Shown here in pieces: positions 1-23,129 of a DNA stretch of 64,000 bases (position 1 is its first letter; every line of letters starts with the position of its first letter). A model generated the notes under the pieces. That model was not told where the DNA came from. It worked only from the letters and a program-made list of their open reading frames with translations, and did no database searches. Source of the DNA: Halorutilales archaeon Cl-col2-1 (GTDB taxonomy: Archaea > Halobacteriota > Halobacteria > Halobacteriales > Afararchaeaceae); NCBI GenBank assembly GCA_041891055.1, contig CP169074.1, forward strand, positions 1,312,001 to 1,376,000. The letters run 5' to 3'. The position numbers and the translations under genes are program-made.

Positions 1-1374
1 CCTACCTTCAGGAGAGTCTATAACGGATGTGACATCGTCATAGTCTCCACTACCGCGAGACATCCTGTTGACTTCGTCTACGATGGGTTTAGTAGCCCAT
101 TCAGGGGTTTCAGAGGTAGTCGTAGCTCCCTCTTTATCAAGTAGTCCGACCTCATCGAGTGTGTGAACAGCTCCGGAGAGTCCGAGATTATTAATGAACT
201 CCTCTCGGCGATCCAGATCAAGTGCCGCTACGGATAGGGAGAGAATGAGGTCAGACAGATCACAGGGCTCGAACCTGTTGAAGTCAGGTGTGCCTCTTAC
301 CGAAAACCCTCTAGGCGTGAAGTCAATCGAATTAACCTCCGACTCTTCGCTTTTGTTACCGGTCAATGATGCGGCTAACGTCTTCGGATTGTCGACAGTA
401 GCAGAGACCATAGTCACCTGTGGATCATTTTTTGAGTAATACGACTTTAGCCGTTGAGTTAAGAGAGAAATCGCCGCACCTTGGATACCGCTCCAGACAT
501 GCGCTTCGTCGAACACTATATGCTTCAGGGGCTGTTCTCCGGGAGAATGACCGAGTATGTCGAGCGTCTCTTCGTTGTCCGAGACGAACATGTAGTCGAG
601 TGCTTCCGGATTGGTGAGCAGTATGTCAACCCCTTGTCGGATAGCATCTTTTGTGACCCGTATCCACGAGTACTGGTTGTCATCTGTACCGACACTCGTA
701 CTGCTCAGGACACGGAGTTTTTCGTCTTCATCCCTTGGATCAACTAGTCCACGGATATACGCCCCTTCCTCCACTTCATAGTCACGCGTTCCGACGCGTT
801 GCGGTGTGTCAGAGTCCCATATTCCTATGGTTATCCTCTCCTCTGGGGCGCGGTTCCGGTTGATATGGTCTAAGTAAGTGATGAAACGGTTCAGCTGATC
901 GACTCCGAGAGTCTTCATAGGATAGACCACAAGGGATTTCAACCCCTCTTCGTCGGTTGAGAGGCAGTGGTTCAGCATCGGAAGGAAGAATGCCTCAGTC
1001 TTACCTGCTGCCGTAGGAACAGCGAGAATGCTGTCCTTGTTCGTTTTCTCAATAGCTTCTATGGTCTCAGCCTGATGCTGATAGAGGGAACCAGAAGGGT
1101 CTCCTCCGAAGAGTTCCTGAACTATAGCATCGGTAATATCCGAGTGATAACCCAACTCCTCTTGAAGGAAAGGAGCGGCTGGGTTATCATGGAACTTCGG
1201 AGCGTCGACGAACTCTACGAAAGGTCCTTTTTGCTCGATTAATTCATTAGCGACGAAGGACTGAGCGTTTGAGACTCCGTCTACTTCGTTAAGCTTCGTC
1301 ATCGAGCGGTTCCACCACGTAATTTCGGATGCCCGATCGAGAGCAGAGTTGAGAGTGTCTTGGGGAGTCTGCAT
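1..1374 (-). CDS. SF2 DEAH-box helicase of the DrmA/DpdJ/DruE-like defence type, N-terminal part (continues beyond the left edge)
   Basis: Not in the ORF track. Manual translation from the ATG at 1374 is open to base 1: MQTPQDTL...LYQHQ (Q motif), VPTAAGKTEAF (I), VYPMKTLGVDQ (Ia), LLTNPEALD (Ib), VFDEAH (II), MVSAT (III). Confidence 0.9.
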   Translation of the reverse strand, partial: MQTPQDTLNSALDRASEITWWNRSMTKLNEVDGVSNAQSFVANELIEQKGPFVEFVDAPKFHDNPAAPFLQEELGYHSDITDAIVQELFGGDPSGSLYQHQAETIEAIEKTNKDSILAVPTAAGKTEAFFLPMLNHCLSTDEEGLKSLVVYPMKTLGVDQLNRFITYLDHINRNRAPEERITIGIWDSDTPQRVGTRDYEVEEGAYIRGLVDPRDEDEKLRVLSSTSVGTDDNQYSWIRVTKDAIRQGVDILLTNPEALDYMFVSDNEETLDILGHSPGEQPLKHIVFDEAHVWSGIQGAAISLLTQRLKSYYSKNDPQVTMVSATVDNPKTLAASLTGNKSEESEVNSIDFTPRGFSVRGTPDFNRFEPCDLSDLILSLSVAALDLDRREEFINNLGLSGAVHTLDEVGLLDKEGATTTSETPEWATKPIVDEVNRMSRGSGDYDDVTSVIDSPEGR

Positions 1375-1454
1375 CTTGTCAGTACCCAAACAAAACAGGA
1401 TGCTTAGTTATTAAATTGAGGGTCGTTCATTCAATAGTTCTTTATTTGATCCAA

Positions 1455-2114
1455 TTATGTATGGACTTCATCAGGAGGAATTATATTTAGGTGATGTTCT
1501 GAAGAGTAATGTTTTTCGATAGCGTCGTTAATATCTGATTCTCTATCTATCATATCACGGTAATCAAGAGTGACAACCATATTTCCCCCACAGTGATCGC
1601 ACCAAACTGCTCCTTGTGCCAAGACGATGCTATCTTGATAATTATCGATCCGTGAATCTATATCCTCCGCTAATTCGTCCTTATGATCACCCGTATATAT
1701 TTTCGTTCTTTTCTTTACTGTTCGCTTCCTTGACCTGACTGAGCGGATGAATTTACGTAGCTCGTAAAATTTATTTTCATCATCAATCGATGCGAATTCC
1801 ATCTGCAGGTCTCGAAGGTGGTCTCGGTCATTATCCGTTACTTTTACAGATGGATTTCTGCTTTCGAAATCTATTACTTCGTACCTGAATATTGGATGGG
1901 TTTCTGAGTCACTCTCCTGTTCAACGAACTTCCGAAGATCAATATAGATTTGTCCCCTTGTAGAACATCTCATTTCAAATTCATCCTCAACTTCTGTGGA
2001 GATGAATTTGTCATCTCTTCCCTCAATAACGGAGATGCTACCTTCATCTCCTTCAAGCCAGACTTGTACGTAATTCAAAAGGACACTTGTATCGAGGAAC
2101 AGTTGTGAAGGCAC
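1455..2114 (-). CDS. PIN-domain protein (putative RNase toxin)
   Basis: N-terminal LFLDTSVLL, acidic EVEDE, DSIVLAQG and VTLD motifs typical of the PIN fold; GTG start 5 bp after the upstream stop. Confidence 0.7.
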   Translation of the reverse strand: MPSQLFLDTSVLLNYVQVWLEGDEGSISVIEGRDDKFISTEVEDEFEMRCSTRGQIYIDLRKFVEQESDSETHPIFRYEVIDFESRNPSVKVTDNDRDHLRDLQMEFASIDDENKFYELRKFIRSVRSRKRTVKKRTKIYTGDHKDELAEDIDSRIDNYQDSIVLAQGAVWCDHCGGNMVVTLDYRDMIDRESDINDAIEKHYSSEHHLNIIPPDEVHT

Positions 2115-2119
2115 TTATG

Positions 2120-3318: not shown

Positions 3319-6300
3319 ATGAAATACTTCGACAGAAACTCCGATGAATCCCGAATGGACTCTCAAGTCCGCCCTCTTCTCCAAGGACTTCTACAGAACA
3401 AACAGATATTCACCGAGGACGATACTGACGACGCGCCAGAGGTTACTGGAGCACTGAAGTACACTCAGGAGGAGCAAAAACGCCGAGACGTAGATGACTA
3501 CGACGGTGACAATCCGTTTGTCGAGTCTATAATAGATATATTCGGTTTCCAGCCTCTCGACTTCCAAGTAAACAGCTGGAGGGTAATGGAAGAACTCGAC
3601 GCAAGACGGCAACAGAGGGACAGGTCACAACGGGTTATATTCTCGGCTCCCACCGGCTTTGGGAAGACAGAGAGCTTCTTAGGACCGCTTTATCAGCTAC
3701 TCCGTCGCGGTGATCAGGAAATGTCTATTCTGGTGTACCCTAGCCGTGCGCTTCTTCAGGATCAGTTGGCGCGTATTCTAGAGCATATCCATACAATAAG
3801 AGAGGATAGTGGTGACCATCTCTCAGTAGGCATCTGGACGGGACAGACTCCGTATAAAATCTCTGACGTTGAAAATGATTTCTTTGAGCGAGAGGGATCC
3901 GAACAGGAGTTCAAGCTGGCTAACTGTTGGTGCGGCGAAGAAGACGAAACTAATTCATTCGTATATCGGGGCGGAAGCGACGGCTACAGTGTAGTCTGCG
4001 AAAACAATGAGGACCACTCGTTTAGTAACCGTGAGCTCGTCCTCAACCGTACAGATATGCGCAAGGGGGGACATCCCAACATTCTGCTAACTACCTTAGA
4101 GTCCTTGGAGCTATTCGGTCTCAAGCCGAACTACGATATCATAAGCCACGCTGACTCAATAGTCTTTGATGAAATCCACCTGTATACCGGATTAAGGGGC
4201 GCACACACCGCTAACATAGTCAACAACATCGAATCCGTTACCGATGACTCCATACTCTGGGTAGGCTCAAGTGCAACTATTGACAACGAAGAGAGATTCG
4301 CAAACAAGATATTCCCTTCGGGCGGAGAGCTAGAGTCAGTTTCGCCCCCTGACTCCGACTTTGCCACAGATCACGACGACAAGGAACACTACTACTTCAT
4401 GAAGTCGACTGAGTCCGGTCCAGGTGTATCCTCTATGTATATACAGCAGATAATGTTGCTCGGACACTCCCTACTTGAGAAACAGAACGGCGACCGTGGT
4501 AAGATACTTTCATTTATTGATAGTATAAGCCAGGTTAACCAGAAGAGAACCCAGCTTGAGGACGCTGACAGCAACCGGAGTCTATGGCAACACCACGTGG
4601 GGTCAGGTGACACCAGCGACTGGGAAGTGGTCGCTCAAGATATGGGGTATAACTTCCTCCGAAACGACCTTGATTTTGGATCCGTATACTCGGACGTTGG
4701 GTTCGACGCTTCGGTAAAGGACAACGACGTTCTACTATCTACGAACTTTCTTGAGGTCGGCATCGATGTAGGCGACATAACGATAGTAACCCAGTACCGT
4801 ACCCCGTGGAACCTTTCTTCGTTTGTTCAGCGAGCGGGTCGCGCTGCACGCGAAGAAGGAACTGACTCACACATCTTTGTCTTTCTCTCTGACCTAACAG
4901 AAGACTCCAATATGTTCTACCGAGCCGACCGTTTCCTGTCTTCCGAAATACGAACCCCGTTAAAAACCGATAACGAGGTTGTCAAATGGATACACGACCG
5001 GTTTGAGATCTATTACGAAATCGCCACCCAGATATCCGACCGTAGATACTACTCTACTAAGGAGGAAACGGAGGACTTCCACGAAAGGTTCCTTGTTGAC
5101 GAGCTGGGCTGGGAGGACTACCACACCTTAATTACAGATCCGGGGCAGGTTCTCGCAAGAGAGTTAGATATCTATGACTCGTTCGACAGCTTGGTAGGGC
5201 AGAGACCGGTTGAAGAAGTATTGGCTAGACTAGAAGAAGAACAAGATGAGATAGATAATCAGCTGTCCATTGAAGGAGTCGAAGGAGATACCGTTTCCTC
5301 TCTTTCAAATTCTATTCACGAAAATATCCTTAGATTCGTCCAAGAGCGCTCAGACGTTGTAGAGGAATGCGGAGAATCCGAGGTTCCGGAAAACCTACTT
5401 GATGACCTATCGTCTAAGCTTGATTCTATCCGGAAAACTCTCACAGATCAGCCTGGGAATACGACAGGCTCAGTCTCCGAAACTGGATATCAGGAAGTAC
5501 TCCCTGACTTATTTGACGTAACTAGTGACATACTCAGGTTACGGAATAACATACAAAACGACTCAGTTAACGTAGGTCAGTTTGAATTTAGTGCTCAGGA
5601 TATAAGCGACCAAGTATCTGAGCTAAAGAGGCTGACAGATGATGAGGAGGTGAAGAAGTTAGAAAAGAAACGGAAAAAGACCCAGTACCTCATGAAGGCT
5701 CTGGAGGAGATACACGACTACAACGAAATTCAGACAAATCATCTAAGCCTCCACTACGTGAAGCATCTCCTGCGAGGTGGCTATTACTTCAACAGGTTCC
5801 TACGGGTGGATGGAGGTTCGTTAGGCGACGGTGATATATGGTATATACCCGAGAACTACTTCAACGACGCTGGCAAGTACTTCACTGTAAAGTACGGTGA
5901 TAATGAGGGTAGCGATTCAGAGGAACCTATCGACAAGCTCGTACATTCGTACACTCCCTTCAGGAGCGAATATCAGCAAGACGCTGGTCATCTGCAGGCG
6001 TTTGTTCCCATGACCGTGGTGGAAGAAGACGGCACGGTACGGTTCGACTTCAGCGATATCGATGAAGGGGAGACACATGACGACCTTTTCGTCCCTGATT
6101 CTATCACCCTCTCCGACATAGATGACCTGAGCGGGAGTAAAGCCCTGAACATAGTTCGGTACTGTCCACAGTGTCTACAGATTCTTGACGAAGGTAGCTG
6201 TCTTCGTCACAACGATTCCAGGCTGGGTAAGATACACTCCAGTCCGAATGTAGAGACAACACTAACCGAACGTGTAGAGGAGTCAAAACAGGGCAATATG

Positions 6301-7356
6301 TCACTCGCAGATGTCTCCGGAAAGGTACGTCTCACAGGTACGTCGCTAGAGATTACACCCGCAACATACAGTTCCCAGAGTTCCCAGAATGGGAAGTATA
6401 TCTTCACAGGTGGCGATAGAATCAGTCGGGAGATTACGGCTCCTGAACAGACACTAGGTTTCACCATCGATACACGGGGACTGATATTTGACATTAGTGA
6501 TTATCTGGATGTCGTTGGTGATGATGTTACGACAGAACACGCGTCTCGGTACAACGACTTCGACGAGGTTTCGGCTCGGTACGTGGCAACCCACACAGCG
6601 GCACACTTCTATACGCAGTTCGTCGCAGATCTGGCGGGAATAAGCCCTAATATGTTGTTCTACGGTTTCGATATGGATAACGAGGAAGTATACGTGTTTG
6701 AACGCTCCCAGGGTGGACAGGGTATCGTTGACTTGGTCTTCAATGATGTCCGCCAAGATCCTGCAACTGCGCTTGAGTCAATTACCCGCATCAGCTACAA
6801 TCTCCAAGTTATCAACGAACGTCTCTGGGCAGACGAAGAGTTCGTTGAGAATTTAGAAGAATCCCGAAACAAGGATCAACTAGAGGAGTTGGTTAGAAGT
6901 TTTGATGAGGTTCCTGTATATAATCACATTGTCGACCTGATTGTGGAAGAGGTGCAGTCCTCAGTAGACAGAGCTACTCAGCTGGCACAAGAGGAGTCAA
7001 TATCAAGGGAAACAGCCTACGAGGTGAAACACACCGTATCAAAAGAGCGTGTAGCTGGTGTTGAGACCTTTCCCGAAGAGAAAGTGTCCAACGTAGTCCC
7101 AAATATCGGAGACCACGAAAGAATCAAAACCCTATTCTTCTCACCAGATATTGACGGCTGTGTAGAGAACCTTCATCTATCCGAATGTATATCCTCCTAC
7201 GATCAGTCTGATGCACTCAGCTACGTATTCCTTGAAGAACTCCGAGAGGAACTGATTGAATACATCCCAAGCAATAAAAGCGCAGACCACATCTTCAACA
7301 AAGAGATGTTCCCAGGAGGTGAGTACGATGGTACAAACATTTTCGTTACCCTCTAG
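3319..7356 (+). CDS. Large SF2 helicase with C-terminal DUF1998-like region (DpdJ-like)
   Basis: APTGFGKT, YPSRALLQDQ, DEIH, SSAT, LEVGIDVG, QRAGRAAR; Cys/His clusters (CWC..C..H, CPQC..C..H); C-terminal HTAAH...FERSQGGQG...DGC; followed by a PLD gene as in dpdJ-dpdK. Confidence 0.8.
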   Translation: MKYFDRNSDESRMDSQVRPLLQGLLQNKQIFTEDDTDDAPEVTGALKYTQEEQKRRDVDDYDGDNPFVESIIDIFGFQPLDFQVNSWRVMEELDARRQQRDRSQRVIFSAPTGFGKTESFLGPLYQLLRRGDQEMSILVYPSRALLQDQLARILEHIHTIREDSGDHLSVGIWTGQTPYKISDVENDFFEREGSEQEFKLANCWCGEEDETNSFVYRGGSDGYSVVCENNEDHSFSNRELVLNRTDMRKGGHPNILLTTLESLELFGLKPNYDIISHADSIVFDEIHLYTGLRGAHTANIVNNIESVTDDSILWVGSSATIDNEERFANKIFPSGGELESVSPPDSDFATDHDDKEHYYFMKSTESGPGVSSMYIQQIMLLGHSLLEKQNGDRGKILSFIDSISQVNQKRTQLEDADSNRSLWQHHVGSGDTSDWEVVAQDMGYNFLRNDLDFGSVYSDVGFDASVKDNDVLLSTNFLEVGIDVGDITIVTQYRTPWNLSSFVQRAGRAAREEGTDSHIFVFLSDLTEDSNMFYRADRFLSSEIRTPLKTDNEVVKWIHDRFEIYYEIATQISDRRYYSTKEETEDFHERFLVDELGWEDYHTLITDPGQVLARELDIYDSFDSLVGQRPVEEVLARLEEEQDEIDNQLSIEGVEGDTVSSLSNSIHENILRFVQERSDVVEECGESEVPENLLDDLSSKLDSIRKTLTDQPGNTTGSVSETGYQEVLPDLFDVTSDILRLRNNIQNDSVNVGQFEFSAQDISDQVSELKRLTDDEEVKKLEKKRKKTQYLMKALEEIHDYNEIQTNHLSLHYVKHLLRGGYYFNRFLRVDGGSLGDGDIWYIPENYFNDAGKYFTVKYGDNEGSDSEEPIDKLVHSYTPFRSEYQQDAGHLQAFVPMTVVEEDGTVRFDFSDIDEGETHDDLFVPDSITLSDIDDLSGSKALNIVRYCPQCLQILDEGSCLRHNDSRLGKIHSSPNVETTLTERVEESKQGNMSLADVSGKVRLTGTSLEITPATYSSQSSQNGKYIFTGGDRISREITAPEQTLGFTIDTRGLIFDISDYLDVVGDDVTTEHASRYNDFDEVSARYVATHTAAHFYTQFVADLAGISPNMLFYGFDMDNEEVYVFERSQGGQGIVDLVFNDVRQDPATALESITRISYNLQVINERLWADEEFVENLEESRNKDQLEELVRSFDEVPVYNHIVDLIVEEVQSSVDRATQLAQEESISRETAYEVKHTVSKERVAGVETFPEEKVSNVVPNIGDHERIKTLFFSPDIDGCVENLHLSECISSYDQSDALSYVFLEELREELIEYIPSNKSADHIFNKEMFPGGEYDGTNIFVTL

Positions 7357-7774
7357 CGGATTACGTTACTTGCTCGGTTACTCATTAGCACAAAAGGATC
7401 ATGTTGCTATATGCACGCCGTGGCTGAGCGACGTAGAGCTACGGCTACCGCTAAGTCCCGAAGTAGAAGATCGTCGTATTTCGCTGTCTGCTGCTCTCGA
7501 AAAGTTTGACACAAGAGTGGATGTGTATATCAGAGAAGGTCAGTCACACAATGAGTATATTCTTTCAAAAATAGGAGAGAATGCTAATATAACTAAAGAT
7601 GAGAATCTACACGCCAAGGCTATCGTAACCAACGAGTACGTGTATCTCGGCTCCGCAAATATAACAAGAGGTGGATTGTTGACGAATCTCGAGCTGTGTC
7701 AGGTGATAGAAAACGAGTATGAGAGCGTAGAGAAGTACCTGGAGGCTGAGTTAGAACTCTCAGTTTCTCCATAA
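7328..7774 (+). CDS. Single-HKD phospholipase D-family nuclease (DpdK/DrmC-like)
   Basis: CTPWLSD and LHAKAIVTNEYVYLGSANIT. The ATG at 7328 is preceded by GGAGGTGA and overlaps the helicase end, so it is preferred over the ORF-track start at 7256. Confidence 0.8.
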   Translation: MVQTFSLPSSGLRYLLGYSLAQKDHVAICTPWLSDVELRLPLSPEVEDRRISLSAALEKFDTRVDVYIREGQSHNEYILSKIGENANITKDENLHAKAIVTNEYVYLGSANITRGGLLTNLELCQVIENEYESVEKYLEAELELSVSP

Positions 7775-7783
7775 TCAGGACTA

Positions 7784-8338
7784 TCAGTTGGATTCCTGAT
7801 TTAATCTCGGGTTGTCAACTTCAAGAAAGTCCGAAAGATTCTCCAGCAGAATTTCTTGGTGTTCGTAGACAGTCTTTCGCGTTTTCTTACTGTGACCAGA
7901 CAGTTTGACCTTGTCCACCATTCTTATCAGATGTTCCAGCTTCTGCTTCGATCTGTTGTACGGCTCAGATCGGAACTCAAGCTCTTCTTCGGTAATTAAC
8001 TCGACGACACCATCCGGCTCGTTTAGATTGATGCTCGTTGACGGAAGAGATGAGGACTGCCCCTCTTCGAAGTTCAGGTATGGTTCGTACTCAGTGAGTA
8101 GTAGCTGCTCTGCCTTATCAGTGCCATCAGTTTCCCACCATTCGACTCTATGAATATCCCATATATCCAACCTACCATAGCTAACTACACTTGAGTCTTG
8201 ACGAATAAAATGCTCTCTCAGACGCCTTCTTAGGCTACTATCTGTCTTACCTGCATATGCCGGCTCATCGTCTAAGTCATACATGCAGTACACTCCACAT
8301 TCACCCCTTGGAACGGTCTTAAGCTCCTCGGAAATCAT
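7784..8338 (-). CDS. GIY-YIG nuclease family protein
   Basis: GVYCMY...AYAGKT...LRRRLREHF...E...LN matches the GIY-YIG hairpin plus conserved R, E and N. Confidence 0.85.
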   Translation of the reverse strand: MISEELKTVPRGECGVYCMYDLDDEPAYAGKTDSSLRRRLREHFIRQDSSVVSYGRLDIWDIHRVEWWETDGTDKAEQLLLTEYEPYLNFEEGQSSSLPSTSINLNEPDGVVELITEEELEFRSEPYNRSKQKLEHLIRMVDKVKLSGHSKKTRKTVYEHQEILLENLSDFLEVDNPRLNQESN

Positions 8339-9900
8339 CGCAACTCCTCTACTATGATAGCGTTCACTAACTCAGAAGCACCGTCGTACGAGTATGTTAT
8401 CTGCTTGTTTTCGAAGTCAATAGAGACATTACCCTGTAAGTATCCTTTGCGTTCTTGTTCCCGGAGATAGTCCAAGTCACCCCACTCCCAAGCTACGATA
8501 GCGTCAATAACTTCCAGATTCCTTTCCTTCTCGAAGTGATCTTGAACAGACATCTCTACTGAGGTAGCCTCAAGCCCCTGCCCATTGCGTATGAAGGCAG
8601 TTACATCGTGATCAGGTCGGTAGTCCTCAAGCTCCACTATAGGCTCTTCTTTATCACGATTGACTCTCTCAAGCGCGACGAGGAGTTCTGCTGTGTTTTC
8701 AGGCACAAATTCTGAATCCTGCCTCTTAATTAGTTTCTCACGTCTCTGCTCGACGGACTTCGACTGAGACTCAGATCTACGTTGCGCTTCTCCTCTTCGT
8801 AGCGTATCTTGGTACTTCGAGAACCACGGATCGCTACATACTTTGGAGATGTAGTGCCTGACCTCTTCCAAAAGACGGTCGTATAAATCACTACTCTTGT
8901 TGCGGATCTTACCCCTGTTGGCTGAGAGTTCAAGATCCTGACAGTTAGCCACAAAGAAGAGATGTGTGTGTTCTACGTTGTCCGGAACAACCTCATTAGC
9001 TTGTTCGACCTTGATATGATCCTTTGCTAACCAGACTCCGAACTGTGCAGAATGTTTCCCGTACGTGGCAAGTTTGTTACGTGCTCTTTTACCTCCTACC
9101 ATGCCGACAATCTCCACCTCAGAAGTACCACCATCATGCTCTACCTGCAAAGTCTTTGCAGGATAGTGCTTGCACATCCATTCTCCAGGGAACCTCCCCC
9201 CCGCAGGCTCTATCTGCTCTTCGGGAAACTCAAAGTGGTTGTTGATTCTCAGATCTTTCTGAGTATCGTCGATGTAGGCATCCAGATCAACAATTACCTC
9301 CATCTCACGGGAATCGTCTTCGAAGAAGTGAGCAGTAGATCCTGCAACTGTCTTCCACTTCAGATAGTGTTCTATCTTATTGTAGGTTAACGAACCTTCA
9401 CTAAGTCCTTTACCCGACCTGAAGCCGATAATCTCAATCTTCGTACCTTCCCGATTATCCCTCTGCTGCTCTGTGACCTCATACTCCGGTAATTCTCTCT
9501 CATTTAGCTTTTCCCAAGGTCGATTCATCTTCGCCGACAGATGTTTATCGTTCTTTGAGGTCTCAACTCGTATCTGATCACTCTTGTAGAAAATCTTAGT
9601 ACCATGTCCCTTGTACCCGATACCATCTTCTTTGTTGGAGTTTCCTAAATCAAAGAAAGACTCTAAATCGTCTTTATCCATCCCATTTCCGTCATCCTCT
9701 AAGACAATGTCCGCTCCTTCATCACGGGTACGTATTGTTATCTCGAAACGACCGGCGTCCGCATCGTATGCGTTAGATAAGGATTCTCGTATTACCTCGA
9801 GAGGATCCTCAAAATCACTAGCAATTTCCAGGAACTCGTTAACTTCGTTTACTTTCGGTGTTTTCCTCGTTTCTCCTTCCGTTTTTGTTTCTGTTTTCAT
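8335..9900 (-). CDS. GHKL (MORC/MutL/Hsp90-like) ATPase
   Basis: Bergerat boxes RESLSNAYDA, EDDGNGM, GIGYKGHG and GT; S5-like region (LSANRGKI); coiled segment; C-terminal DAIVAWE region. Confidence 0.85.
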   Translation of the reverse strand: MKTETKTEGETRKTPKVNEVNEFLEIASDFEDPLEVIRESLSNAYDADAGRFEITIRTRDEGADIVLEDDGNGMDKDDLESFFDLGNSNKEDGIGYKGHGTKIFYKSDQIRVETSKNDKHLSAKMNRPWEKLNERELPEYEVTEQQRDNREGTKIEIIGFRSGKGLSEGSLTYNKIEHYLKWKTVAGSTAHFFEDDSREMEVIVDLDAYIDDTQKDLRINNHFEFPEEQIEPAGGRFPGEWMCKHYPAKTLQVEHDGGTSEVEIVGMVGGKRARNKLATYGKHSAQFGVWLAKDHIKVEQANEVVPDNVEHTHLFFVANCQDLELSANRGKIRNKSSDLYDRLLEEVRHYISKVCSDPWFSKYQDTLRRGEAQRRSESQSKSVEQRREKLIKRQDSEFVPENTAELLVALERVNRDKEEPIVELEDYRPDHDVTAFIRNGQGLEATSVEMSVQDHFEKERNLEVIDAIVAWEWGDLDYLREQERKGYLQGNVSIDFENKQITYSYDGASELVNAIIVEELR

Positions 9901-9901
9901 C

Positions 9902-11143
9902 TTAGAAGTAACCTCCTAATGATTCATTTACGACTCTGTGAGCGTGTTTACGTGTCGACTCCTCACGTGCAATATTATTGTCTATATAATTCCTAAGTGC
10001 ATCCTGTCCCTCCTCAATCTTGTTCCGTATCCTTTCTAATTCTCGTTTCTGAACTATTAGGTTATGCACAGCTATTGGACCGGCTATATCCTTTTCGTAC
10101 TTCGTATTTCCTTTCATACGACTCACAAGCTCATCAGAGCTGCATACAGGACAGTCGCATTCCTCGTAATTAGCTTCGTCTTTATGTACTGTCTTCGTCA
10201 GGGATGTCGAATACTTTCCATTTATCCCCCCACGCATATACGAAGATGAGTCAAAAGTATCCACACCCAAAGCGGCAAGTAGAGGTATAGCCCCTTTGGA
10301 GATTCCAAAAACGTGTAATGGGAGATCTTCTAATCCTTCTTCTTGCATTACCTCCTTACACCCGATAACTGCCTCGATAAGGGTATCACGGTCATCTTTC
10401 TTTGGAACTAGCCCACCTAGTGCGATACCGTCAAACGAATTATATATTCTCTGTATACCCATCTCGTCTTTAAGATGAGTTAAGAAAGTTTTGATCATCG
10501 AATAGTTATAGCCATGTAATGTGAGATACTTGGCCCCAGCATAGCCTGAGGACAGTTCTGCAAATTGACGAGCGTCTTTACCAGTCTTCCTCGCTTTTCT
10601 TATTCTATCGTCATGGTTATCCTCAGGTGAGATAGGACGATCAAGATTTACGAGAATATCTCCTCCCAACTTTCTCTGCATTTCGTATATCCTCTCCTGA
10701 TTCATCTCTATCTCAAAGTCACTCCCATCAAGCTTCCCTTTCCTTAGTATTTGAAAACCTCCAGAATCAATAAATATCATACCATTAAATCCCTCAAATA
10801 CGTCTCGCGCTTTGATTGGTTCAGAAAGATAGTCTCGGAGATAGTTTCTACTAATTCCATATTGAGTTAGTGATGATATCGACATCATAGCAGTATCAAA
10901 ATATTCACTGCAGTCAACGCTGTCAACCCTATCAGCACCCACCATCAATTCTTTGACTGTCCTGTGAACGCTCCCCCCAAACATACTGGAAGCACGCCCT
11001 CCACCATAGAAATTCACTACAGGAAAAAGATTTGGCGTCTCAATTTCGGCTGTTCCAGCAGACAAAGTTCCTGTCCTAGCATCACCAGTAGTAGAAGATA
11101 CTTCAAATGAGACTTCCTGCGAACCCATACCTATACTACTCAT
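9902..11143 (-). CDS. TGT-family transglycosylase B (DpdA-like, no PUA domain)
   Basis: ARTG, ETPNLFPV, FIDSGGFQ, LDRPI, ALGGLVP, LHVFG, GVDTFDSSSY and zinc site CDCPVC...HN; catalytic Asp residues present. Confidence 0.9.
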   Translation of the reverse strand: MSSIGMGSQEVSFEVSSTTGDARTGTLSAGTAEIETPNLFPVVNFYGGGRASSMFGGSVHRTVKELMVGADRVDSVDCSEYFDTAMMSISSLTQYGISRNYLRDYLSEPIKARDVFEGFNGMIFIDSGGFQILRKGKLDGSDFEIEMNQERIYEMQRKLGGDILVNLDRPISPEDNHDDRIRKARKTGKDARQFAELSSGYAGAKYLTLHGYNYSMIKTFLTHLKDEMGIQRIYNSFDGIALGGLVPKKDDRDTLIEAVIGCKEVMQEEGLEDLPLHVFGISKGAIPLLAALGVDTFDSSSYMRGGINGKYSTSLTKTVHKDEANYEECDCPVCSSDELVSRMKGNTKYEKDIAGPIAVHNLIVQKRELERIRNKIEEGQDALRNYIDNNIAREESTRKHAHRVVNESLGGYF

Positions 11144-11589
11144 GCTTTAATCACTCTCTTATCTCGAACGAATTTTTTTAATACATGCCCACGTTCACCG
11201 AGACCTCCCTCTAGCATTATCACTTCAGCATCTGTCTTGGATTCTATTCCATCTATTGCTCTACGGTATAGCTCCCCCATATTAATGACAACTTTACTGT
11301 AGTCGTTCTTCTCAATTGTCCTAGATAATTCGTGCACAACGTCGGTATTAAGCTCGTCGGCACGTGAGGCAGTCATCTTTTTATCATACGTTACTATTTT
11401 CTCCTCTGGATCCAGCAATCCATATTCCGCAGAAAGTATACATATATCAATATCATCGTCGTATTCCCCCTCCCGTCTTGCTTTTTTAATTATCTTGTAA
11501 TAGTATCCAGAATATAGATCAAAGGCAGGAACCGGTTCAGAAACTGACTTCTTCGAGCTAGAGCAACTTTGAACGAGTAGTGTCGACAT
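11140..11589 (-). CDS. DUF6884/YaaA-like small protein
   Basis: LLVQSCSSSKK...PAFDLYSG...ILSAEYGLL...YD pattern; ATGA-coupled to TGT B. Confidence 0.7.
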   Translation of the reverse strand: MSTLLVQSCSSSKKSVSEPVPAFDLYSGYYYKIIKKARREGEYDDDIDICILSAEYGLLDPEEKIVTYDKKMTASRADELNTDVVHELSRTIEKNDYSKVVINMGELYRRAIDGIESKTDAEVIMLEGGLGERGHVLKKFVRDKRVIKA

Positions 11590-11626
11590 CTGTAGAATAC
11601 GTTTTAATCACCGAGACCTATATAAC

Positions 11627-13624
11627 TTACTCAACTGACGGACTGATTCCCCTCAAGTGACTGACTAACTCCTCTATATTGGACTTTCGAAAATGTTCTC
11701 TAAGTTTCAGGATGTTCGGATCATCTGGCAACACAGTTCCATCACCATATCTAGAAAAGGCTTCATCTACTGCTTCTCTGTAGTTTTTACTAACCACATA
11801 TCCTAAGATTTCATCGTATTCATCTCCATACTGCTCAAGATACTCAGTTAATCTCTTCGTGATCAAATCCTTCTGACCTTCATCCTCAGAAGTTAATACA
11901 TATTCGTACTCTAAAACCGCCTGTTCTTCTTCGTATTCTTCAGGAACTGGCCCAAACATACCCGAAAGGGTTACTTTATGTATATCATTACGCATAGAGG
12001 AAACTTCATCAAGCACTGCTCTCTGTGTACGTGATGACCCATAGGGCTTCTCTTTACTGCACGGTAAGATCAATAAGATAGGTTTGTCTGGTGGGGAGTA
12101 ATTTCTCTGTAATATATTGAAACTATTCGCTCCATGCTCAAGAGATATTGTTCGATTAGTTGTGCCCCCCTTCACTCCGGCATCAAATCTATCTAATTTA
12201 GACTGGTGTTTCGTCATCTTAGACCCAGGCAAAAGATCATAATCACCTCTGTCCTCAATATCTTTCCTTAGCTTTTCATCCCTGACTTGCGCTTGTTTTA
12301 GTCCTTTTTGGATCCCATTGTCTTCGCGTGCGAATTCAATAACATAATCAAGAAGATTTCCATTCTTAATAGCCTCTTGAACCCGCCTTACTTCTCTGTT
12401 ATATACCTCGAAGTTATGACGAGCAAGCCATCCGTAGTATTTGCTCTTCGTGAACCCATCAGTTCCATATGTCGGCTCACGTTCTATATACTCATTTAAT
12501 TTTTTAAGAGAGAGTCTATTTCCTTCCTCATCAAGAGCCTCAGATTCCTCACTACATAGTGGACATCCATCTATATTACACGGGAATGTGTCTTTTTCCT
12601 CTGCTAGTTCACTTAATTCTACTCTCTCCCACGTTTCAGGTATAATATACTTCCTGAATTTAGCAGCTTGAACATGGCTTGAGCAATCAAATGAATCAAC
12701 CCCTAGAAGAGAAAGAATACCCGCTTGTTTACCTCCTACTCCAAAAGAATGTAAAGCTATTTTATCCTTCTTTTCCTCTGGAATAGCATCTTTAGCTCCT
12801 TGGATTATATCAACCAGAGTCTTTGTTTTGCTTCGAAGGGGTACTAAAGATCCAATGGCAAATCCATGAAAAGGTTGCTGTACGTTTTCCTCCTCAATAC
12901 GTTCAAGGAAATTCATCACATACCAGTTCATTGTCTCATAGTCATGTCCATGAATAGCAACAAAAACAGCTGGGTCAGCTACTTTCTTCTGCTTCTTTAA
13001 ACGGCGTATACTTTCTTTATCTTGTTCAGAACGTATTTCTATCTTATCAGGGCCCTCAATAAGTTTTAAACAGCGTACAGCACTTTCGATACTTTGATTC
13101 ATTCGGTCAATCTTTTCCCCTTCTTTTAGATTCTGTGGGATTGGATAATCAAGGGTAGCTATAATATCAGCCCCAAAGTCCGTCTGTAATTTCAAAATGC
13201 TGTCAGGATCTGTATATATACCCCATTCATTTTCTTCACCTCCTTCGTCAGGAGCTAGTCCAAATGTCTTAGAATTCATTAATTTAAATCCGCCAGAATC
13301 AATAAAAAGAGGTGCATTCATGTCAACACGACTTTCTAAATGTTCTCGAAGAGTTTTTTTACGCCATTTCTCGTTAAGATTCTTGGGAGAGACCCCATAC
13401 TCAGTAAAGCTCATAGCTTGAAACATAATGCCCTGAAGATCGTCTTCATCAAGTATATTATCCCGGAAGTGCCTCCATATTGATCCAGAGTCTAAAGTAG
13501 TGCCGCCAATTAGATTTATAACAGGGAAAAGAGCAGGTGTATTAACCTCCCCATTACGGACAGAAAGGGTGCCAAGCCTACCATAGCCATCATCACTGAC
13601 TTCATCAATAGAAAACTCCGTCAT
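11627..13624 (-). CDS. TGT-family transglycosylase A fused to a C-terminal DUF5591 (ArcS-type) domain
   Basis: GRLG, TPALFPV, FIDSGGF, LDYPI, AIGSLVP, LHSFG, GVDSFDCSSH and zinc site C..GCPLC...HN; C-terminal LILPCSKEKPYGSSRTQ...GPVPEEYE. Confidence 0.88.
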   Translation of the reverse strand: MTEFSIDEVSDDGYGRLGTLSVRNGEVNTPALFPVINLIGGTTLDSGSIWRHFRDNILDEDDLQGIMFQAMSFTEYGVSPKNLNEKWRKKTLREHLESRVDMNAPLFIDSGGFKLMNSKTFGLAPDEGGEENEWGIYTDPDSILKLQTDFGADIIATLDYPIPQNLKEGEKIDRMNQSIESAVRCLKLIEGPDKIEIRSEQDKESIRRLKKQKKVADPAVFVAIHGHDYETMNWYVMNFLERIEEENVQQPFHGFAIGSLVPLRSKTKTLVDIIQGAKDAIPEEKKDKIALHSFGVGGKQAGILSLLGVDSFDCSSHVQAAKFRKYIIPETWERVELSELAEEKDTFPCNIDGCPLCSEESEALDEEGNRLSLKKLNEYIEREPTYGTDGFTKSKYYGWLARHNFEVYNREVRRVQEAIKNGNLLDYVIEFAREDNGIQKGLKQAQVRDEKLRKDIEDRGDYDLLPGSKMTKHQSKLDRFDAGVKGGTTNRTISLEHGANSFNILQRNYSPPDKPILLILPCSKEKPYGSSRTQRAVLDEVSSMRNDIHKVTLSGMFGPVPEEYEEEQAVLEYEYVLTSEDEGQKDLITKRLTEYLEQYGDEYDEILGYVVSKNYREAVDEAFSRYGDGTVLPDDPNILKLREHFRKSNIEELVSHLRGISPSVE

Positions 13625-13733
13625 ATCTATACAGTAGATACTAAGAGAATTAGAGCTTTCGGAAAGGTGTATCCGAAACTTCAGGTATATTGGGAGACTT
13701 GAAAAGTATAGGAGTAGTTCAATAAGCTACGCC

Positions 13734-14411
13734 ATGACAGAAAATAACCAAGCTATAGCGATACCTCAAATATCACTAATTGCTCTGTTTGTCACTGCGT
13801 TAATTACTGCTCAAGTAACTGCCTCGAAGGTTATAGAGATCGGACTACCATTCGGATTACCAGTAACGGGGGAGTCAATAATAGTCCCAGCAGCAGTTTT
13901 TGCATACGCTCTTACTTTCTTCTCCTCTGACTGCTATGCTGAACTCTACGGTAAGCAAGCAGCACAAGCTCTTGTTAACGTCGCATTCATCATGAATTTC
14001 GTTCTATTAGCTCTAGTTTGGCTCGCTATATACGCACCTATCTTTCCAGATTCTCCTGTCGGACAAAATGAATTTGTCCAGACTCTTGGTGCTAGTACTG
14101 GAATAGTCATGGGGAGTTTATTAGCGTATATCGTAAGTCAAAACTGGGATGTTATAGTGTTCCACCGTCTCAAGAACTTTTCTGACGGAGATGATCTATG
14201 GCTTCGTAACATTATCTCTACTTCCACGAGTCAGCTAATAGATACAGTTATATTCATCTCAATTGCATTTATTGTCTTCCAAGGATTGTCTCTTGAAGCA
14301 GGAATAGCTCTCCTCATCGGACAATATGTATTCAAACTGCTTATAGCAGTACTCGACACACCATTTGTGTACATAGTAGTGGGTATAATAAGATCCAATC
14401 AAGATGGATAG
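13734..14411 (+). CDS. yhhQ: Queuosine-precursor (preQ0/preQ1) transporter, YhhQ/Vut_1 family
   Basis: Multi-TM protein with SDCYAELYG, SLLAYIVSQNWDV, WLRNIISTSTSQLIDTVIF and DTPF motifs. Confidence 0.9.
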   Translation: MTENNQAIAIPQISLIALFVTALITAQVTASKVIEIGLPFGLPVTGESIIVPAAVFAYALTFFSSDCYAELYGKQAAQALVNVAFIMNFVLLALVWLAIYAPIFPDSPVGQNEFVQTLGASTGIVMGSLLAYIVSQNWDVIVFHRLKNFSDGDDLWLRNIISTSTSQLIDTVIFISIAFIVFQGLSLEAGIALLIGQYVFKLLIAVLDTPFVYIVVGIIRSNQDG

Positions 14412-14452
14412 TAACTCAATAGTCTAACAAGAAGTATCCATGAAGTGAGTGT

Positions 14453-14590
14453 GAGTACGCGCGTAAAGTCGACATCGACAAAGATGTCAAGCTGTTTCGT
14501 CTCCAGGGACTCAAGTATCAGCTCGCTATCTTCGTGACTGACAAAGCTGAAGAACTTGAAAAAACAGAATAGAAGAGCTTACGAGTTTTC
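14453..14590 (+). pseudogene. Degenerate copy of the 3' end of the 16784-17409 gene
   Basis: Translates EYARKVDIDKDVKLFRLQGLKYQLA versus EYVRKADVDEDVKESRLQGLKDQLA; identical 18-mer TCGTCTCCAGGGACTCAA at 14497 and 17274. Confidence 0.85.
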
Positions 14591-15403: not shown

Positions 15404-15652
15404 ATGACTTCCGGGAAACAAACAGACAAGCAAGACCTGATCGACGAGCTGAAGAGGCTAGCAGATATGACAGACGACGAACCCAAAGTCAAGCATGTCC
15501 GCAAGTATGGCGAATATTCCTATACAGCGTACAGGCGTTACTTTGATTCTTGGGAAGAGGCTCTCGATGCTGCTGGTATCACTGAAAAATCAAGCGAAAT
15601 TAAGATCGAAATCAAAATCGAGTTAGACAAAACCTTTTCTTTCTCTATCTGA
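15404..15652 (+). CDS. Homing-endonuclease-associated repeat protein (no nuclease domain)
   Basis: LIDELKRLA...P....GEYS...YRRYFDSWEEALDAAG is the HNH-associated repeat pattern. Confidence 0.75.
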   Translation: MTSGKQTDKQDLIDELKRLADMTDDEPKVKHVRKYGEYSYTAYRRYFDSWEEALDAAGITEKSSEIKIEIKIELDKTFSFSI

Positions 15653-15840
15653 GAATCTTTTGACCTGGGTCAGTTGACCCATCCTATCCTCTCATACTTC
15701 TTTACGACACAAAACTAGCCTCCTACACATATTCAAAAGAAAGTATTTAGAGACCTCTAAATAACGAAAACATATATGCTGAATATTACTTTACCTTCTC
15801 CAAAGTCTTTAAATCCATACACATCAAAGATCTATGTAGT

Positions 15841-16296
15841 ATGACTTACGAGAACCTTGATCTCAAAATCATAAACCTGCTCGAGGACGATGCACGTAGA
15901 AGTCTTAGGAGCCTAGCCGAAGAGCTCGATGTCTCGGTCACAACTGTAAGCAACCATCTTGAGAACATGCAAGAGGAGGGTATAGTAAAAGGCTTCAAAC
16001 CAGTCGTCAACTACGACGAACTCGGTTACGGCGTCACAGCCACAGTGATGATAAAAGCCGAGGGTAACAGCATCCTCGATCTCACAGAAGACCTCAAAGA
16101 CATAGACTCGTTCTTGAGTGTCTATGAGGTCACAGGAGAGTTCGACATAATCGCTATAGGCAAGTTCGAGAGCACGGAGGCAATGAACAACGTAATCAAG
16201 AACCTCTTAGAGAATCCCAACATAGCTGAGACCAACACCAACGTCGTCTTAGAAACTCACAAAGAAAACGAAGACATCGAGTTCGAAGTAGAATAG
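15841..16296 (+). CDS. lrp: Lrp/AsnC family regulator (haloarchaeal Lrp-like)
   Basis: MTYENLD...SLRSLAEELDVSVTTVSNHL HTH and a RAM domain with YEVTGEFDI. Confidence 0.85.
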   Translation: MTYENLDLKIINLLEDDARRSLRSLAEELDVSVTTVSNHLENMQEEGIVKGFKPVVNYDELGYGVTATVMIKAEGNSILDLTEDLKDIDSFLSVYEVTGEFDIIAIGKFESTEAMNNVIKNLLENPNIAETNTNVVLETHKENEDIEFEVE

Positions 16297-17935: not shown

Positions 17936-19207
17936 TTATTCGAATTTTTTGAGTTCAGTCTGTCTTCCATCATCGGAGGTATCGCCATCATATTCTATGC
18001 CATCCTCAGGGAATGCAGATGTAAATTTATCCCTAGCGTACTGTCGGATAAAGTCTTTTTTCTTATCATCGTCAAGATAGCTATTTTCTATGACATCTAT
18101 CGAGGAGCTTGCTTGATCCTCTGCTACTATTTCGAGGGTTCTATGCAGTTCTGCGTTTGCGCTGTGGTAGAATGTATACCAAAATCTACGCAGATTTTTA
18201 GGTGTAGGGGTAGATTCATCGCTTAAGGACACATTTGCTCTATTAGCTATGTCCTTAACCCAGTGTCTTAGTGTCTGATCGGTTCTGGACCCGGACTGAG
18301 TATCAGATGGGAATACTTTGCCGTTCCAGTTATCTTCGTTTCTCAGCTGATTTATATAATACTCAATAGCTTTTTTACCCCCCATGATAGCTACTTCTCC
18401 GGGGCCGTTCTTCCTTTCGCGGTATTCAATGCTTGGGTTATTGTCAATATCTATGTCTTGAGGGACATCTATCCTAATGATATCAGATGGGCGTGCTCCT
18501 GCTCCACCCATCAGGGCTAACAGAGCCTGTTCACGTAAGCTATCTGCCTCATACCACATGCGGCGTATTTGATCAGCAGATAGTGCCTCCGTCTTCGAGT
18601 CTGTCTCTCTCTCCCACCCAAACTCATCTAGTAGTCCATCTGCAGGATTATAATCAATTTCGCCGCGTCTGGCGCAATATTCGTAAAATTCTCTTAAATC
18701 AGTAGCGTAATTTATTTTGGATTGACCACTCTGGTAATAGTCGTCGATGACCTCAAAGACTCTCTCCAAGATGGCAAACCCAGATCTCTCTGAGCCACGT
18801 GCTAGACACATCAAGTCTCCGTCTCCAGTTATCTTATGTACGTAATCTAGGATAGTCGACAGACGTGATCTCCTTGACTCACGTGTAGTCTCGGCAAGTT
18901 TTTGGTGGTTTACTACATCATCTATATAGTTGTCGAGTTTACGCTGGGTCTCACTATGGTTGCCTGGCCAGTCATAGTCTAGGTTATCATCATCCCGGAA
19001 TCCATAGTGTTCGACCAACATCTCATGGGTGCTCATACCATACTCCCTTCTGGCCGCTCTGTGGATAGCACTGTATCCATTTTCGTTTATCCACTTATGT
19101 GATGGGAGCTCCAACTCTGGTTTGCCATCTTTTTTCAATTTTTCTTTTATTTCGGAGTTTACTATATCATCTATAAACTCTTTGGTATATTTTTTCCCGG
19201 ACATCAT
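17936..19207 (-). CDS. Divergent tyrosine recombinase-like protein
   Basis: SAM-like core, NPA, GARPSD (R), RKNG (K), TPKNLRR in place of HxxR, C-terminal SY; ATGA-coupled to the upstream integrase. Confidence 0.75.
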   Translation of the reverse strand: MMSGKKYTKEFIDDIVNSEIKEKLKKDGKPELELPSHKWINENGYSAIHRAARREYGMSTHEMLVEHYGFRDDDNLDYDWPGNHSETQRKLDNYIDDVVNHQKLAETTRESRRSRLSTILDYVHKITGDGDLMCLARGSERSGFAILERVFEVIDDYYQSGQSKINYATDLREFYEYCARRGEIDYNPADGLLDEFGWERETDSKTEALSADQIRRMWYEADSLREQALLALMGGAGARPSDIIRIDVPQDIDIDNNPSIEYRERKNGPGEVAIMGGKKAIEYYINQLRNEDNWNGKVFPSDTQSGSRTDQTLRHWVKDIANRANVSLSDESTPTPKNLRRFWYTFYHSANAELHRTLEIVAEDQASSSIDVIENSYLDDDKKKDFIRQYARDKFTSAFPEDGIEYDGDTSDDGRQTELKKFE

Positions 19208-20322: not shown

Positions 20323-20377
20323 CAAGACATATATGATACCAATAAATCAGACTCATCCTCAAATCGAGATTTGATGG

Positions 20378-20528: not shown

Positions 20529-20576
20529 TTTGATGGGGGGCAAAGTTTAATATCCCTAAGTATTTATCCAAATTAG

Positions 20577-21788: not shown

Positions 21789-21789
21789 T

Positions 21790-22896: not shown

Positions 22897-23054
22897 CGTA
22901 TCCTCGTGATGTTTAAGCGAATCGTAATGGTCACGCAATATAATAATCGCCCGACATCGTCGGGGTGACTGTTCAACTGAGTTTCATTGCCCTAACCCAA
23001 CATAATTATCCGATCTTTGTCGGGGTTGAAAACACCAGAAGGAGACGGGTTGAA

Positions 23055-23129
23055 TGCTCCGTCAGGGATTTGAACCCTGGTCATTGCCTCGAGAGGGCAA
23101 TATGATTGGCCGGACTACACCAACGGAGC
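23055..23129 (-). tRNA. tRNA-Glu (CTC), CCA not encoded
   Basis: GCTCCGT/ACGGAGC acceptor stem, TTGCC-CTCTCGA-GGCAA anticodon arm, CAGGG-TTCAAAT-CCCTG T arm. Confidence 0.97.

What the first reader, a model, noticed from the sequence alone, without database searches (positions are those of the whole stretch)
7784..14411. Candidate new archaeal 7-deazaguanine DNA modification-restriction system built on two TGTs
Seen: a five-gene minus-strand operon, TGT-A::DUF5591 > DUF6884-like > TGT-B > GHKL ATPase > GIY-YIG. It has ATGA overlaps at 11140-11143 and 8335-8338 and a 1-bp gap at 9901, sits head-to-head with yhhQ, and lies in a tRNA-anchored island. Both TGTs keep the catalytic Asp motifs (DSGGF, LD.P, GVD.FD) and the zinc site. 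Both carry the GG/GS-LVP pocket that resembles preQ0-using archaeal TGT and DpdA rather than bacterial GGLAVG, and both lack the PUA domain of tRNA-acting ArcTGT. Known: bacterial Dpd systems use one DpdA with DpdB and DpdC to put preQ0/ADG into DNA, and restrict with DpdD-K. Inference: this is a different architecture, with two paralogous transglycosylases (possibly one per strand of an asymmetric site, like paired Type IIS methyltransferases, or making two different marks), no DpdB, and a GHKL plus GIY-YIG effector.
Basis: partly seen in the sequence, partly recalled or inferred. Interest (0 to 1): 0.92.

Follow-up and report, generated by a model that had tools for sequence, protein, structure and literature searches.

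The report
Haloarchaeal BRIGADE I DNA-marking module
These genes are most likely the DNA-marking half of BRIGADE Type I, an antiviral system of salt-loving archaea that a 2025 preprint predicted but nobody has tested, and they suggest that it uses two guanine-swapping enzymes and an unusual ATP-driven partner to label the cell's own DNA.

Summary
All lie in one 57-kb island integrated at tRNA-Glu. Its two helicases are 64% and 60% identical to listed BRIGADE Type I proteins (Bell et al. 2025 preprint PMC12458937; prediction only).

What that preprint's text does not describe:
- DUF6884 (DpdC-like) > TGT-B > GHKL is invariant in 39 of 39 relatives among 400 class genomes.
- TGT-A::DUF5591 is present in 35 of those 39. 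The other four carry a phage-DpdA-like candidate plus a second DUF6884.
- The two TGTs are sister clades outside ArcTGT, bacterial TGT and DpdA, with intact catalytic sites.
- The GHKL C-terminal nuclease-like domain is degenerate, so GHKL more likely replaces DpdB than cuts DNA. GIY-YIG is accessory (11 of 39).

No modified base has been measured. This scan saw the module before in other haloarchaeal genomes (e1-2513253, e1-2513218, e1-2513258).

The parts
11627..13624 (-). TGT-A: guanine transglycosylase fused to an ArcS-C1-type (DUF5591) tailoring domain
   Evidence: Pfam TGT and DUF5591. AF2 model pLDDT 92.5. VIA Z 35.6 to ArcTGT 1iq8, 20.6 to DpdA 7ui4; C-terminal domain Z 16.2 to 2q07. 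D109/D159/H225/D313 invariant in 33 of 33 rows. ArcS motif PCx3KPYx2Sx2H ends in Gln here, His in 29 of 33 rows.
11140..11589 (-). DUF6884, DpdC-like tailoring enzyme (predicted preQ0 to ADG conversion on DNA)
   Evidence: Pfam DUF6884 1e-15. PADLOC DpdC 2.8e-8. Directly upstream of TGT-B in 39 of 39 relatives. DUF6884 is equated with dpdC in the GATOR-GC preprint.
9902..11143 (-). TGT-B: second guanine transglycosylase
   Evidence: Pfam TGT. Below the ArcTGT and DpdA cut-offs. D126/D168/D298 and Zn ligands invariant in 37 of 37 rows. Orthologs in 39 of 400 other class genomes.
8335..9900 (-). GHKL/MutL-MORC-type ATPase with a degenerate restriction-endonuclease-like C-terminal domain; probable DpdB substitute
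   Evidence: VIA Z 19.2 to MutL and 18.6 to MORC3. ATPase motifs invariant in 39 of 39 rows; C-terminal column identity 0.55 against 0.79. Full-length orthologs in exactly the 39 TGT-B genomes. Complex prediction with TGT-B gives weak support.
7784..8338 (-). Accessory GIY-YIG nuclease
   Evidence: Pfam 4e-5. Near TGT-B in 11 of 39 relatives, often on the opposite strand.
13734..14411 (+). yhhQ/Vut_1 preQ0 transporter, the only copy in the genome
   Evidence: Relatives carry queC/D/E (14 of 39) or yhhQ (3 of 39) nearby.
3319..7356 (+). [quoted passage not shown]
   Evidence: PADLOC DpdJ 6e-45. [quoted passage not shown]
7256..7774 (+).
   Evidence: PADLOC DpdK 5e-11; NCBIfam DpdK 7e-12.
1..1389 (-). 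5' part of a 1588-aa ARMADA-like YprA helicase. It continues beyond the window start and is followed there by 312-aa, 274-aa (HTH, DpdG position), 978-aa (DpdH-like ATPase) and 228-aa genes (C1:1303263-1313389).
   Evidence: [quoted passage not shown]
23055..23095 (-). Island attachment site: 3' end of tRNA-Glu (23055-23129), repeated exactly 57 kb away

Best explanation
The five genes are the self-marking module of a BRIGADE Type I (Dpd-like) restriction-modification island. Step 1: preQ0 comes from the host archaeosine pathway and the island's YhhQ transporter (genes shown, flux inferred). Step 2: TGT-A and TGT-B each swap a specific guanine in double-stranded DNA for preQ0 (active sites shown; DNA substrate inferred from context). 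Step 3: each TGT has its own tailoring domain of one superfamily. DUF6884 serves TGT-B and probably gives dADG, as DpdC does. The fused DUF5591 serves TGT-A and gives dG+ or dADG. The result is two marked sites: the two strands of one asymmetric motif, or two motifs (inferred). Step 4: the GHKL ATPase acts as the ATP-driven clamp or motor for TGT-B, in place of DpdB (inferred). Step 5: unmarked incoming DNA is destroyed by the neighbouring YprA helicases, DpdH-like ATPase and PLD nuclease. GIY-YIG is an optional extra (inferred).
For: BRIGADE I identity. DUF6884>TGT-B>GHKL order met in 39 of 39 loci. Full-length GHKL orthologs occur in the same 39 of 400 genomes and no others, apart from one fragment. 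TGT-A is in 35 of those 39 genomes and in only one genome without TGT-B. The four without it carry a phage-DpdA-like candidate plus a second DUF6884 in the TGT-A position. Catalytic residues are invariant, and His replaces ArcTGT's Gln as in DpdA His181. The pocket fits the preQ0 motif GGhsbb of PMC10164549, with Ser for the second Gly in TGT-A. queC/D/E lie beside 14 of 39 loci. Housekeeping ArcTGT and ArcS exist elsewhere. DUF6884 and the TGT-A C-terminal domain align (hhalign E 4e-4, probability 36%). A phage DUF5591-only ArcS2 makes dG+ with DpdA2 (PMC10516641). In bacteria TGT-A lies near a DpdJ-like gene in 10 of 24 non-Poribacteria loci. GHKL-TGT-B complex: weak support, score 0.51 against best control 0.00, runs agree in at least 92% of contacts, partner pLDDT at least 86. 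This mark was reached by 116 of 157 solved and 2 of 215 mismatched pairs, but at 0.60 or under by only 18 solved and both mismatches.
Against: No base has been measured and BRIGADE is untested. Both TGTs are structurally closer to tRNA-acting ArcTGT (Z 35.6 for TGT-A) than to DpdA (Z 20.6) and score far below the DpdA cut-off. In 42 Poribacteria or unclassified loci, TGT-A sits among housekeeping genes with no helicase. 14 of 39 haloarchaeal loci have neither YprA helicase within about 18 kb at my thresholds. Bacterial TGT-A and one Aenigmarchaeota TGT-B have no GHKL gene in the flanks held (0 of 67 loci), so GHKL is not universally needed. The replacement of TGT-A is probably one event: 83-96% identity, three of four genomes from one genus. 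The DpdA likeness of the replacing protein is only a lead (Atlas 0.93, DpdA family on 17% of members; hhalign probability under 2%). This copy has Gln for the ArcS-motif His.
Confidence: 0.66

Rival explanations
1. One writer, one attacker. TGT-A::DUF5591 writes the self-mark, while TGT-B with GHKL recognises unmarked sites and excises or traps the guanine (base-excision restriction) to recruit the helicase-nuclease machinery.
For: TGT-A occurs without TGT-B or GHKL beside DpdJ/K-like genes in bacteria. In BRIGADE II-type loci a second TGT is operonic with a 298-aa protein and a BrxC/D-type ATPase in 11 of 11 loci. Three bacterial plasmid loci with no annotated dpdB in the stretch shown carry DUF6884::DpdA plus a second TGT next to helicases or a P-loop ATPase.
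Against: TGT-B is welded to a DpdC-like tailoring gene in 39 of 39 loci, which suits a writer. It keeps the preQ0-type pocket. An Aenigmarchaeota locus has DUF6884>TGT-B>J with no TGT-A in 7.5 kb.
Confidence: 0.13
2. One reading: the five genes are a self-contained restriction-modification system with GHKL and GIY-YIG as the cutting effector.
For: Tight coupling in this genome. The GHKL N-terminus resembles the BbrUII/HgiDII restriction enzymes (6e-11). Its C-terminal fold matches domains fused to Mrr_N, EVE and HARE-HTH (TM 0.58-0.59). GIY-YIG keeps Tyr/Arg/His/Glu in 12 of 12 rows. 14 of 39 loci lack both helicases nearby.
Against: No conserved catalytic acidic or lysine set in the GHKL C-terminal domain across 39 rows. 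GIY-YIG is in only 11 of 39 loci. Many helicase-less loci carry other effector sets: PglZ/HerA, DrmABC-like, PbeA/C, GmrSD-like.
Confidence: 0.09
3. The TGTs act on RNA or on protein, as type IV CBASS Cap10 does, rather than on DNA.
For: Best structural match is ArcTGT. The ArcS-type domain is a tRNA-pathway domain. Poribacteria copies lie in housekeeping neighbourhoods. TGT folds are reused for protein deazaguanylation (10.1101/2025.04.06.647259).
Against: Housekeeping ArcTGT and ArcS are present and above cut-off. The TGT-A/B clade lies outside the ArcTGT plus bacterial TGT clade. Distribution is patchy and island-borne with DNA helicases and nucleases. The PADLOC CBASS TGT model scores only 2e-4 for TGT-B and nothing for TGT-A. 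No CD-NTase was identified among the recurring neighbour families scanned.
Confidence: 0.08

Closest known systems
BRIGADE Type I (Bell, ... Koonin, bioRxiv 10.1101/2025.09.15.676423, PMC12458937; predicted only)
   Same: Haloarchaeal; ARMADA-like plus Dpd-like YprA helicases (64% and 60% identical to listed members); small PLD; DpdH-like ATPase; 7-deazaguanine genes. Seven of 13 named haloarchaeal contigs carrying this module are in its Table S1.
   Different: Its text, legends and text supplements never mention TGT, GHKL, DUF6884 or ArcS; I could not see the figure image. The frequently associated DNA2-like gene was not seen in this island.
Bacterial Dpd system (DpdA/B/C writers, DpdD-K restriction; PMC10164549, PMC5699537)
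   Same: TGT-fold writer with a preQ0 pocket and His, DpdC-like tailoring gene, ATPase partner, DpdH/J/K-like restriction genes, yhhQ or que genes, tRNA-anchored island.
   Different: Two TGTs, neither in the DpdA family; GHKL instead of ParB-like DpdB; ArcS-C1 domain fused to TGT-A; no DpdD/E/F identified; an extra ARMADA-like helicase.
BRIGADE Type II-type loci (haloarchaeal DpdA::DUF6884 plus a 344-aa TGT)
   Same: Also two TGT-fold proteins, one fused to or beside a tailoring domain and one operonic with an ATPase, in 11 of 11 loci examined.
   Different: Uses a true DpdA (above the NF041059 cut-off in 18 of 151 genomes) and a BrxC/D-type P-loop ATPase, not GHKL.
Archaeosine pathway ArcTGT/ArcS and phage ArcS2 (PMC10516641)
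   Same: Closest fold; the DUF5591 catalytic motif.
   Different: Separate clade; scores far below both cut-offs; the host has its own ArcTGT and ArcS.
BRC systems (PMC12839542) and type IV CBASS Cap10
   Same: A TGT recruited to antiviral defence, including in archaea.
   Different: BRC has PglZ, HerA and GNAT and no DpdC homolog; Cap10 binds a modified CD-NTase. Neither partner set was identified in this island.

Membership tests
BRIGADE Type I | ARMADA-like YprA helicase of the BRIGADE I group | tested here: met
   64% identity over 1580 aa to listed WP_276249162.1
BRIGADE Type I | Second YprA helicase from the Dpd branch | tested here: met
   60% identity over 1345 aa to listed WP_276249161.1; PADLOC DpdJ 6e-45
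BRIGADE Type I | Small PLD nuclease | tested here: met
   7256-7774, DpdK 5e-11
BRIGADE Type I | DpdHI/BrxC-like ATPase | tested here: met
   978 aa, DpdH 2e-6; ortholog in the listed locus
BRIGADE Type I | DpdG homolog | tested here: inconclusive
   The 274-aa gene holds the position and has an ortholog in the listed locus, but no DpdG model hit
BRIGADE Type I | 7-deazaguanine biosynthesis/insertion genes (many, not all) | tested here: met
   Two TGTs, DUF6884 and yhhQ in the island; queC elsewhere in the genome
BRIGADE Type I | Halophilic archaeal host | tested here: met
   Housekeeping ArcTGT/ArcS; named close homologs are haloarchaeal
BRIGADE Type I | DNA hypermodification and antiviral activity | not testable with these tools
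   Not shown for any BRIGADE system in the preprint
Canonical Dpd | DpdA-family transglycosylase (NF041059) | tested here: not met
   28.8 bits against cut-off 200 for TGT-B, no hit for TGT-A; none in the genome; outside the DpdA clade
Canonical Dpd | DpdB (DndB/ParB-like ATPase) | tested here: not met
   PF14072 absent from the 99.5% complete genome; the control rang in 1 of 14 genomes
Canonical Dpd | DpdC | tested here: inconclusive
   DUF6884 hits DpdC models at 2.8e-8 over 72 residues; a homolog, activity untested
ArcTGT (TIGR00432) | Score above cut-off and nesting in the ArcTGT clade | tested here: not met
   104 and 127 bits against 350; host copy 541.5; separate clade
Type IV CBASS Cap10 | Cap10-family TGT with a CD-NTase | tested here: inconclusive
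   PADLOC TGT 2e-4 at best; no CD-NTase identified in scanned neighbours, but no Cap10 row was in the tree

The most novel reading that the evidence does not exclude
TGT-A and TGT-B define an undescribed subfamily of DNA transglycosylases, separate from DpdA. They write two chemically different marks (dADG via DUF6884, archaeosine dG+ via the ArcS-type domain) into a cellular genome, driven by a MORC/MutL-type ATPase. This writer cassette would plug into several unrelated restriction modules (YprA/Dpd-like, DISARM-like, PglZ/HerA, Pbe-like), and 'two TGTs when DpdB is absent' would be a general rule.
Probability: 0.25. Interest if true: 0.82.

Novelty: new member of a known kind. Interest (0 to 1): 0.5.

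Why it matters
I found no report of a 7-deazaguanine measured in the chromosome of any archaeon; the archaeal cases I read are viruses. About 10% of sampled haloarchaeal genomes carry this cassette, so it is testable in Haloferax volcanii. It gives BRIGADE I a concrete writer: which genes to mutate and which bases to look for. It would show whether a GHKL ATPase can do DpdB's unexplained job and why DpdB-less systems keep two transglycosylases. Because the system is already named, the gain is mechanistic detail rather than a new category.

Tried and rejected
- Viral contigs: no TGT-B relative. Phage records: only 8 weak matches at 21-25% identity. A viral origin was not found at this sensitivity.
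- The first genome-collection scan failed because the alignment was too diverse. A narrower one worked but is biased to Poribacteria and kept 80 of 116 matches.
- My ORF filter dropped TGT-B in G146, G162 and G356 and GHKL in G146. Counts were redone by tblastn. The alignments use the filtered rows plus this genome (and G288 for TGT-A).
- Foldseek and VIA on the whole GHKL model returned only the ATPase part. The C-terminal fold rests on the Atlas structure search and a motif recalled from memory.
- The 310-aa replacement protein hit nothing useful in Pfam, PADLOC, PHROGs or NCBIfam.
- PUA absence rejected as an argument.
- 'Obligate heterodimer of the two TGTs' was not tested. TGT-A moves freely relative to TGT-B, up to 180 kb away in G004.
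- Papers that did not describe this module in the passages read: 10.64898/2026.10.19.760177, 10.64898/2026.04.15.718813, PMC12839542.
- A phrase search for two-TGT systems found nothing relevant among 14 listed papers.
- The target motif could not be inferred.
Full report
Observation. TGT-B aligns to P. horikoshii ArcTGT across the catalytic aspartates and the G-G-V-V-P loop, with His where ArcTGT has Gln; DpdA has His181 there (PMC10164549). The catalytic aspartates and L-V-P are invariant in 33 TGT-A and 37 TGT-B rows.

Surroundings. The operon converges on a DpdJ-like helicase (3319-7356) and a DpdK-like PLD (7256-7774). At the window start a 1588-aa YprA helicase runs out of the window, followed by 312-, 274-, 978- (DpdH-like) and 228-aa genes. 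An exact 41-bp copy of the tRNA-Glu 3' end 57 kb away bounds an island of 44.2% GC against 55.7%.

Conservation. Among 400 other genomes of the class, 39 have a TGT-B ortholog, the same 39 have a full-length GHKL ortholog, with one further fragment elsewhere, and 36 have TGT-A, 35 of them with TGT-B. Within about 18 kb of TGT-B: DUF6884>TGT-B>GHKL in that order 39 of 39, TGT-A 31, ARMADA-like helicase 20, DpdH-like 20, DpdJ-like 17, PLD 16, queC/D/E 14, GIY-YIG 11, yhhQ 3; several contigs end inside that range. The four genomes lacking TGT-A carry a 310-aa protein plus a second DUF6884 directly upstream. The Atlas links that protein to mostly phage clusters, one with 17% DpdA members, but profile support is weak and the four probably reflect one event. 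Helicase-less loci often carry PglZ/HerA, DrmABC-like, PbeA/C or GmrSD-like genes. Kin are not independent, so these counts are descriptive.

Beyond haloarchaea. TGT-A::DUF5591 occurs in Cyanobacteria, Chloroflexota, Poribacteria and a Symbiobacteriaceae genome (80 of 116 matches kept). It lies near a DpdJ-like gene in 10 of 24 non-Poribacteria bacterial loci and in none of 42 Poribacteria or unclassified loci, which look housekeeping. No GHKL was found in any of 67 non-haloarchaeal loci, several of them short contigs. One Aenigmarchaeota contig has DUF6884>TGT-B>DpdJ-like.

Phylogeny and structure. In a quick IQ-TREE run (106 rows, 353 columns; 17 of 123 rows left out as redundant, plus ArcS among them), the TGT-A group (SH-aLRT 99) and the TGT-B group (96) are sisters (93). 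They lie outside ArcTGT plus bacterial TGT (99) and outside DpdA (98). The root is a midpoint, long branches meet, and neither Cap10 nor phage DpdA was included. The TGT-A model matches ArcTGT (Z 35.6, rmsd 2.4, 347 aligned), DpdA (20.6, 3.0, 304) and Cap10 (19.4, 4.0, 293); its C-terminal domain matches AF0587 (16.2, 2.3, 138; recalled as an ArcS homolog). That domain carries the ArcS motif of PMC5699537, with Gln for His in this copy, and aligns weakly with DUF6884. DUF6884 is described as YaaA-like and DNA-binding (PMC11701544) and is equated with dpdC. The GHKL matches MutL (Z 19.2, rmsd 3.7, 283 aligned) and MORC3. Its ATPase motifs are invariant, but its C-terminal domain, whose fold resembles domains fused to Mrr_N, EVE and HARE-HTH, keeps no catalytic set. 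The GHKL-TGT-B prediction gave weak support: 0.51 against best control 0.00, contacts agreeing at 92% or more, partner pLDDT 86 or more. At this score level only 18 of 157 solved pairs and both passing mismatches of 215 fall.

Prior description. Bell et al. (PMC12458937) define BRIGADE as haloarchaeal Dpd-like systems with a predicted 7-deazaguanine cluster, DpdG, DpdHI/BrxC, YprA helicases and PLD; Type I has one ARMADA-like and one Dpd-like helicase. Their Table S1 lists both helicases of plasmid NZ_CP119784.1. That plasmid carries DUF6884>TGT-B>GHKL, two TGT-A genes and GIY-YIG, and its helicases are 64% and 60% identical to this island's. Seven of 13 named haloarchaeal contigs are also in the table. 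The preprint tested only ARMADA. Its text and text supplements contain no TGT, GHKL, DpdA-C, DUF6884 or ArcS; the figure image may show them.

Mechanism. Most likely both TGTs insert preQ0 into DNA, each with its own tailoring domain, GHKL powers TGT-B as DpdB powers DpdA, and the helicase-PLD block restricts unmarked DNA (0.66). Shown: genes, motifs, linkage, clade and family identity. Inferred: the DNA substrate, the final bases, the role of GHKL and the division of labour. A phage DUF5591-only enzyme gives dG+ with DpdA2 (PMC10516641), and PMC6884629 raises amide formation as an alternative. A parallel supports a general design: 11 of 11 haloarchaeal DpdA loci also hold a second TGT operonic with an ATPase, as do three bacterial plasmid loci without an annotated dpdB, whereas three loci with dpdB showed one TGT in short flanks of 1.5 kb.

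Papers seen. PMC12458937: abstract, passages, figure legends, supplementary PDF text, Table S2, parts 142-143 of Table S1. PMC10164549: passages and Discussion. PMC12839542 and 10.1101/2025.02.24.639861: passages and one section each. 10.1101/2025.04.06.647259: first fifth. PMC5699537, PMC11701544, PMC10516641, PMC6884629, 10.64898/2026.10.19.760177 and 10.64898/2026.04.15.718813: passages only. Thiaville 2016 and Yuan 2018 were not read. Searches.

Verdict. A real, well-conserved module; a new member of predicted BRIGADE Type I, with an undescribed and testable writer anatomy. Earlier notes of this scan reported the same module on other DNA; at least two called it undescribed, which the preprint's table contradicts at system level. 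Interest 0.5.

Noticed in passing
L208-L227, L195: BRIGADE II-type loci: DpdA::DUF6884 fusion (about 967 aa, or split) plus a conserved 344-aa TGT > 298-aa protein > BrxC/D-type ATPase operon in 11 of 11 loci; a third TGT clade.
   Followed up: partly
L244, L245, L246: Nostoc, Picosynechococcus and Paenibacillus plasmids carry DUF6884::DpdA plus a second TGT and no annotated dpdB in the stretch shown.
   Followed up: partly
L114-L178: Poribacteria keep TGT-A::DUF5591 as an apparent orphan among housekeeping genes, sometimes after queD or a DNA methyltransferase; substrate unknown.
   Followed up: partly
L152, L172 and 7 more cyanobacterial loci: TGT-A is followed by a GmrSD_N/DUF262 protein and a MAE_28990 HEPN protein in 9 loci.
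   Followed up: partly
L090:15434-16824: A 310-aa phage-DpdA-like candidate plus DUF6884 takes TGT-A's place in 4 genomes; distant relatives in 17 more of 400.
   Followed up: partly
window 1455-3148 (minus): PIN-like 219-aa and 342-aa gene pair between the two helicases, also in three related loci; possibly a toxin-antitoxin pair.
   Followed up: no
window 17936-22938: Three tyrosine recombinases, a fourth at L001:6294-6908, with an Lrp/AsnC regulator and an HNH-repeat gene at 15404-16296.
   Followed up: no
L002:2181-6215, 9946-14486: The same island holds a 1344-aa TPR-repeat protein and a Tubulin_2 (971 aa) plus 549-aa gene pair, possibly another conflict system.
   Followed up: no
L050/L051, L076/L077, L080/L081: PbeA/PbeC genes, known from phosphorothioate-dependent archaeal defence (recalled), sit next to this TGT cassette in three genomes.
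   Followed up: no
G000:C1:531284-531865: A second QueC-family gene above cut-off.
   Followed up: no
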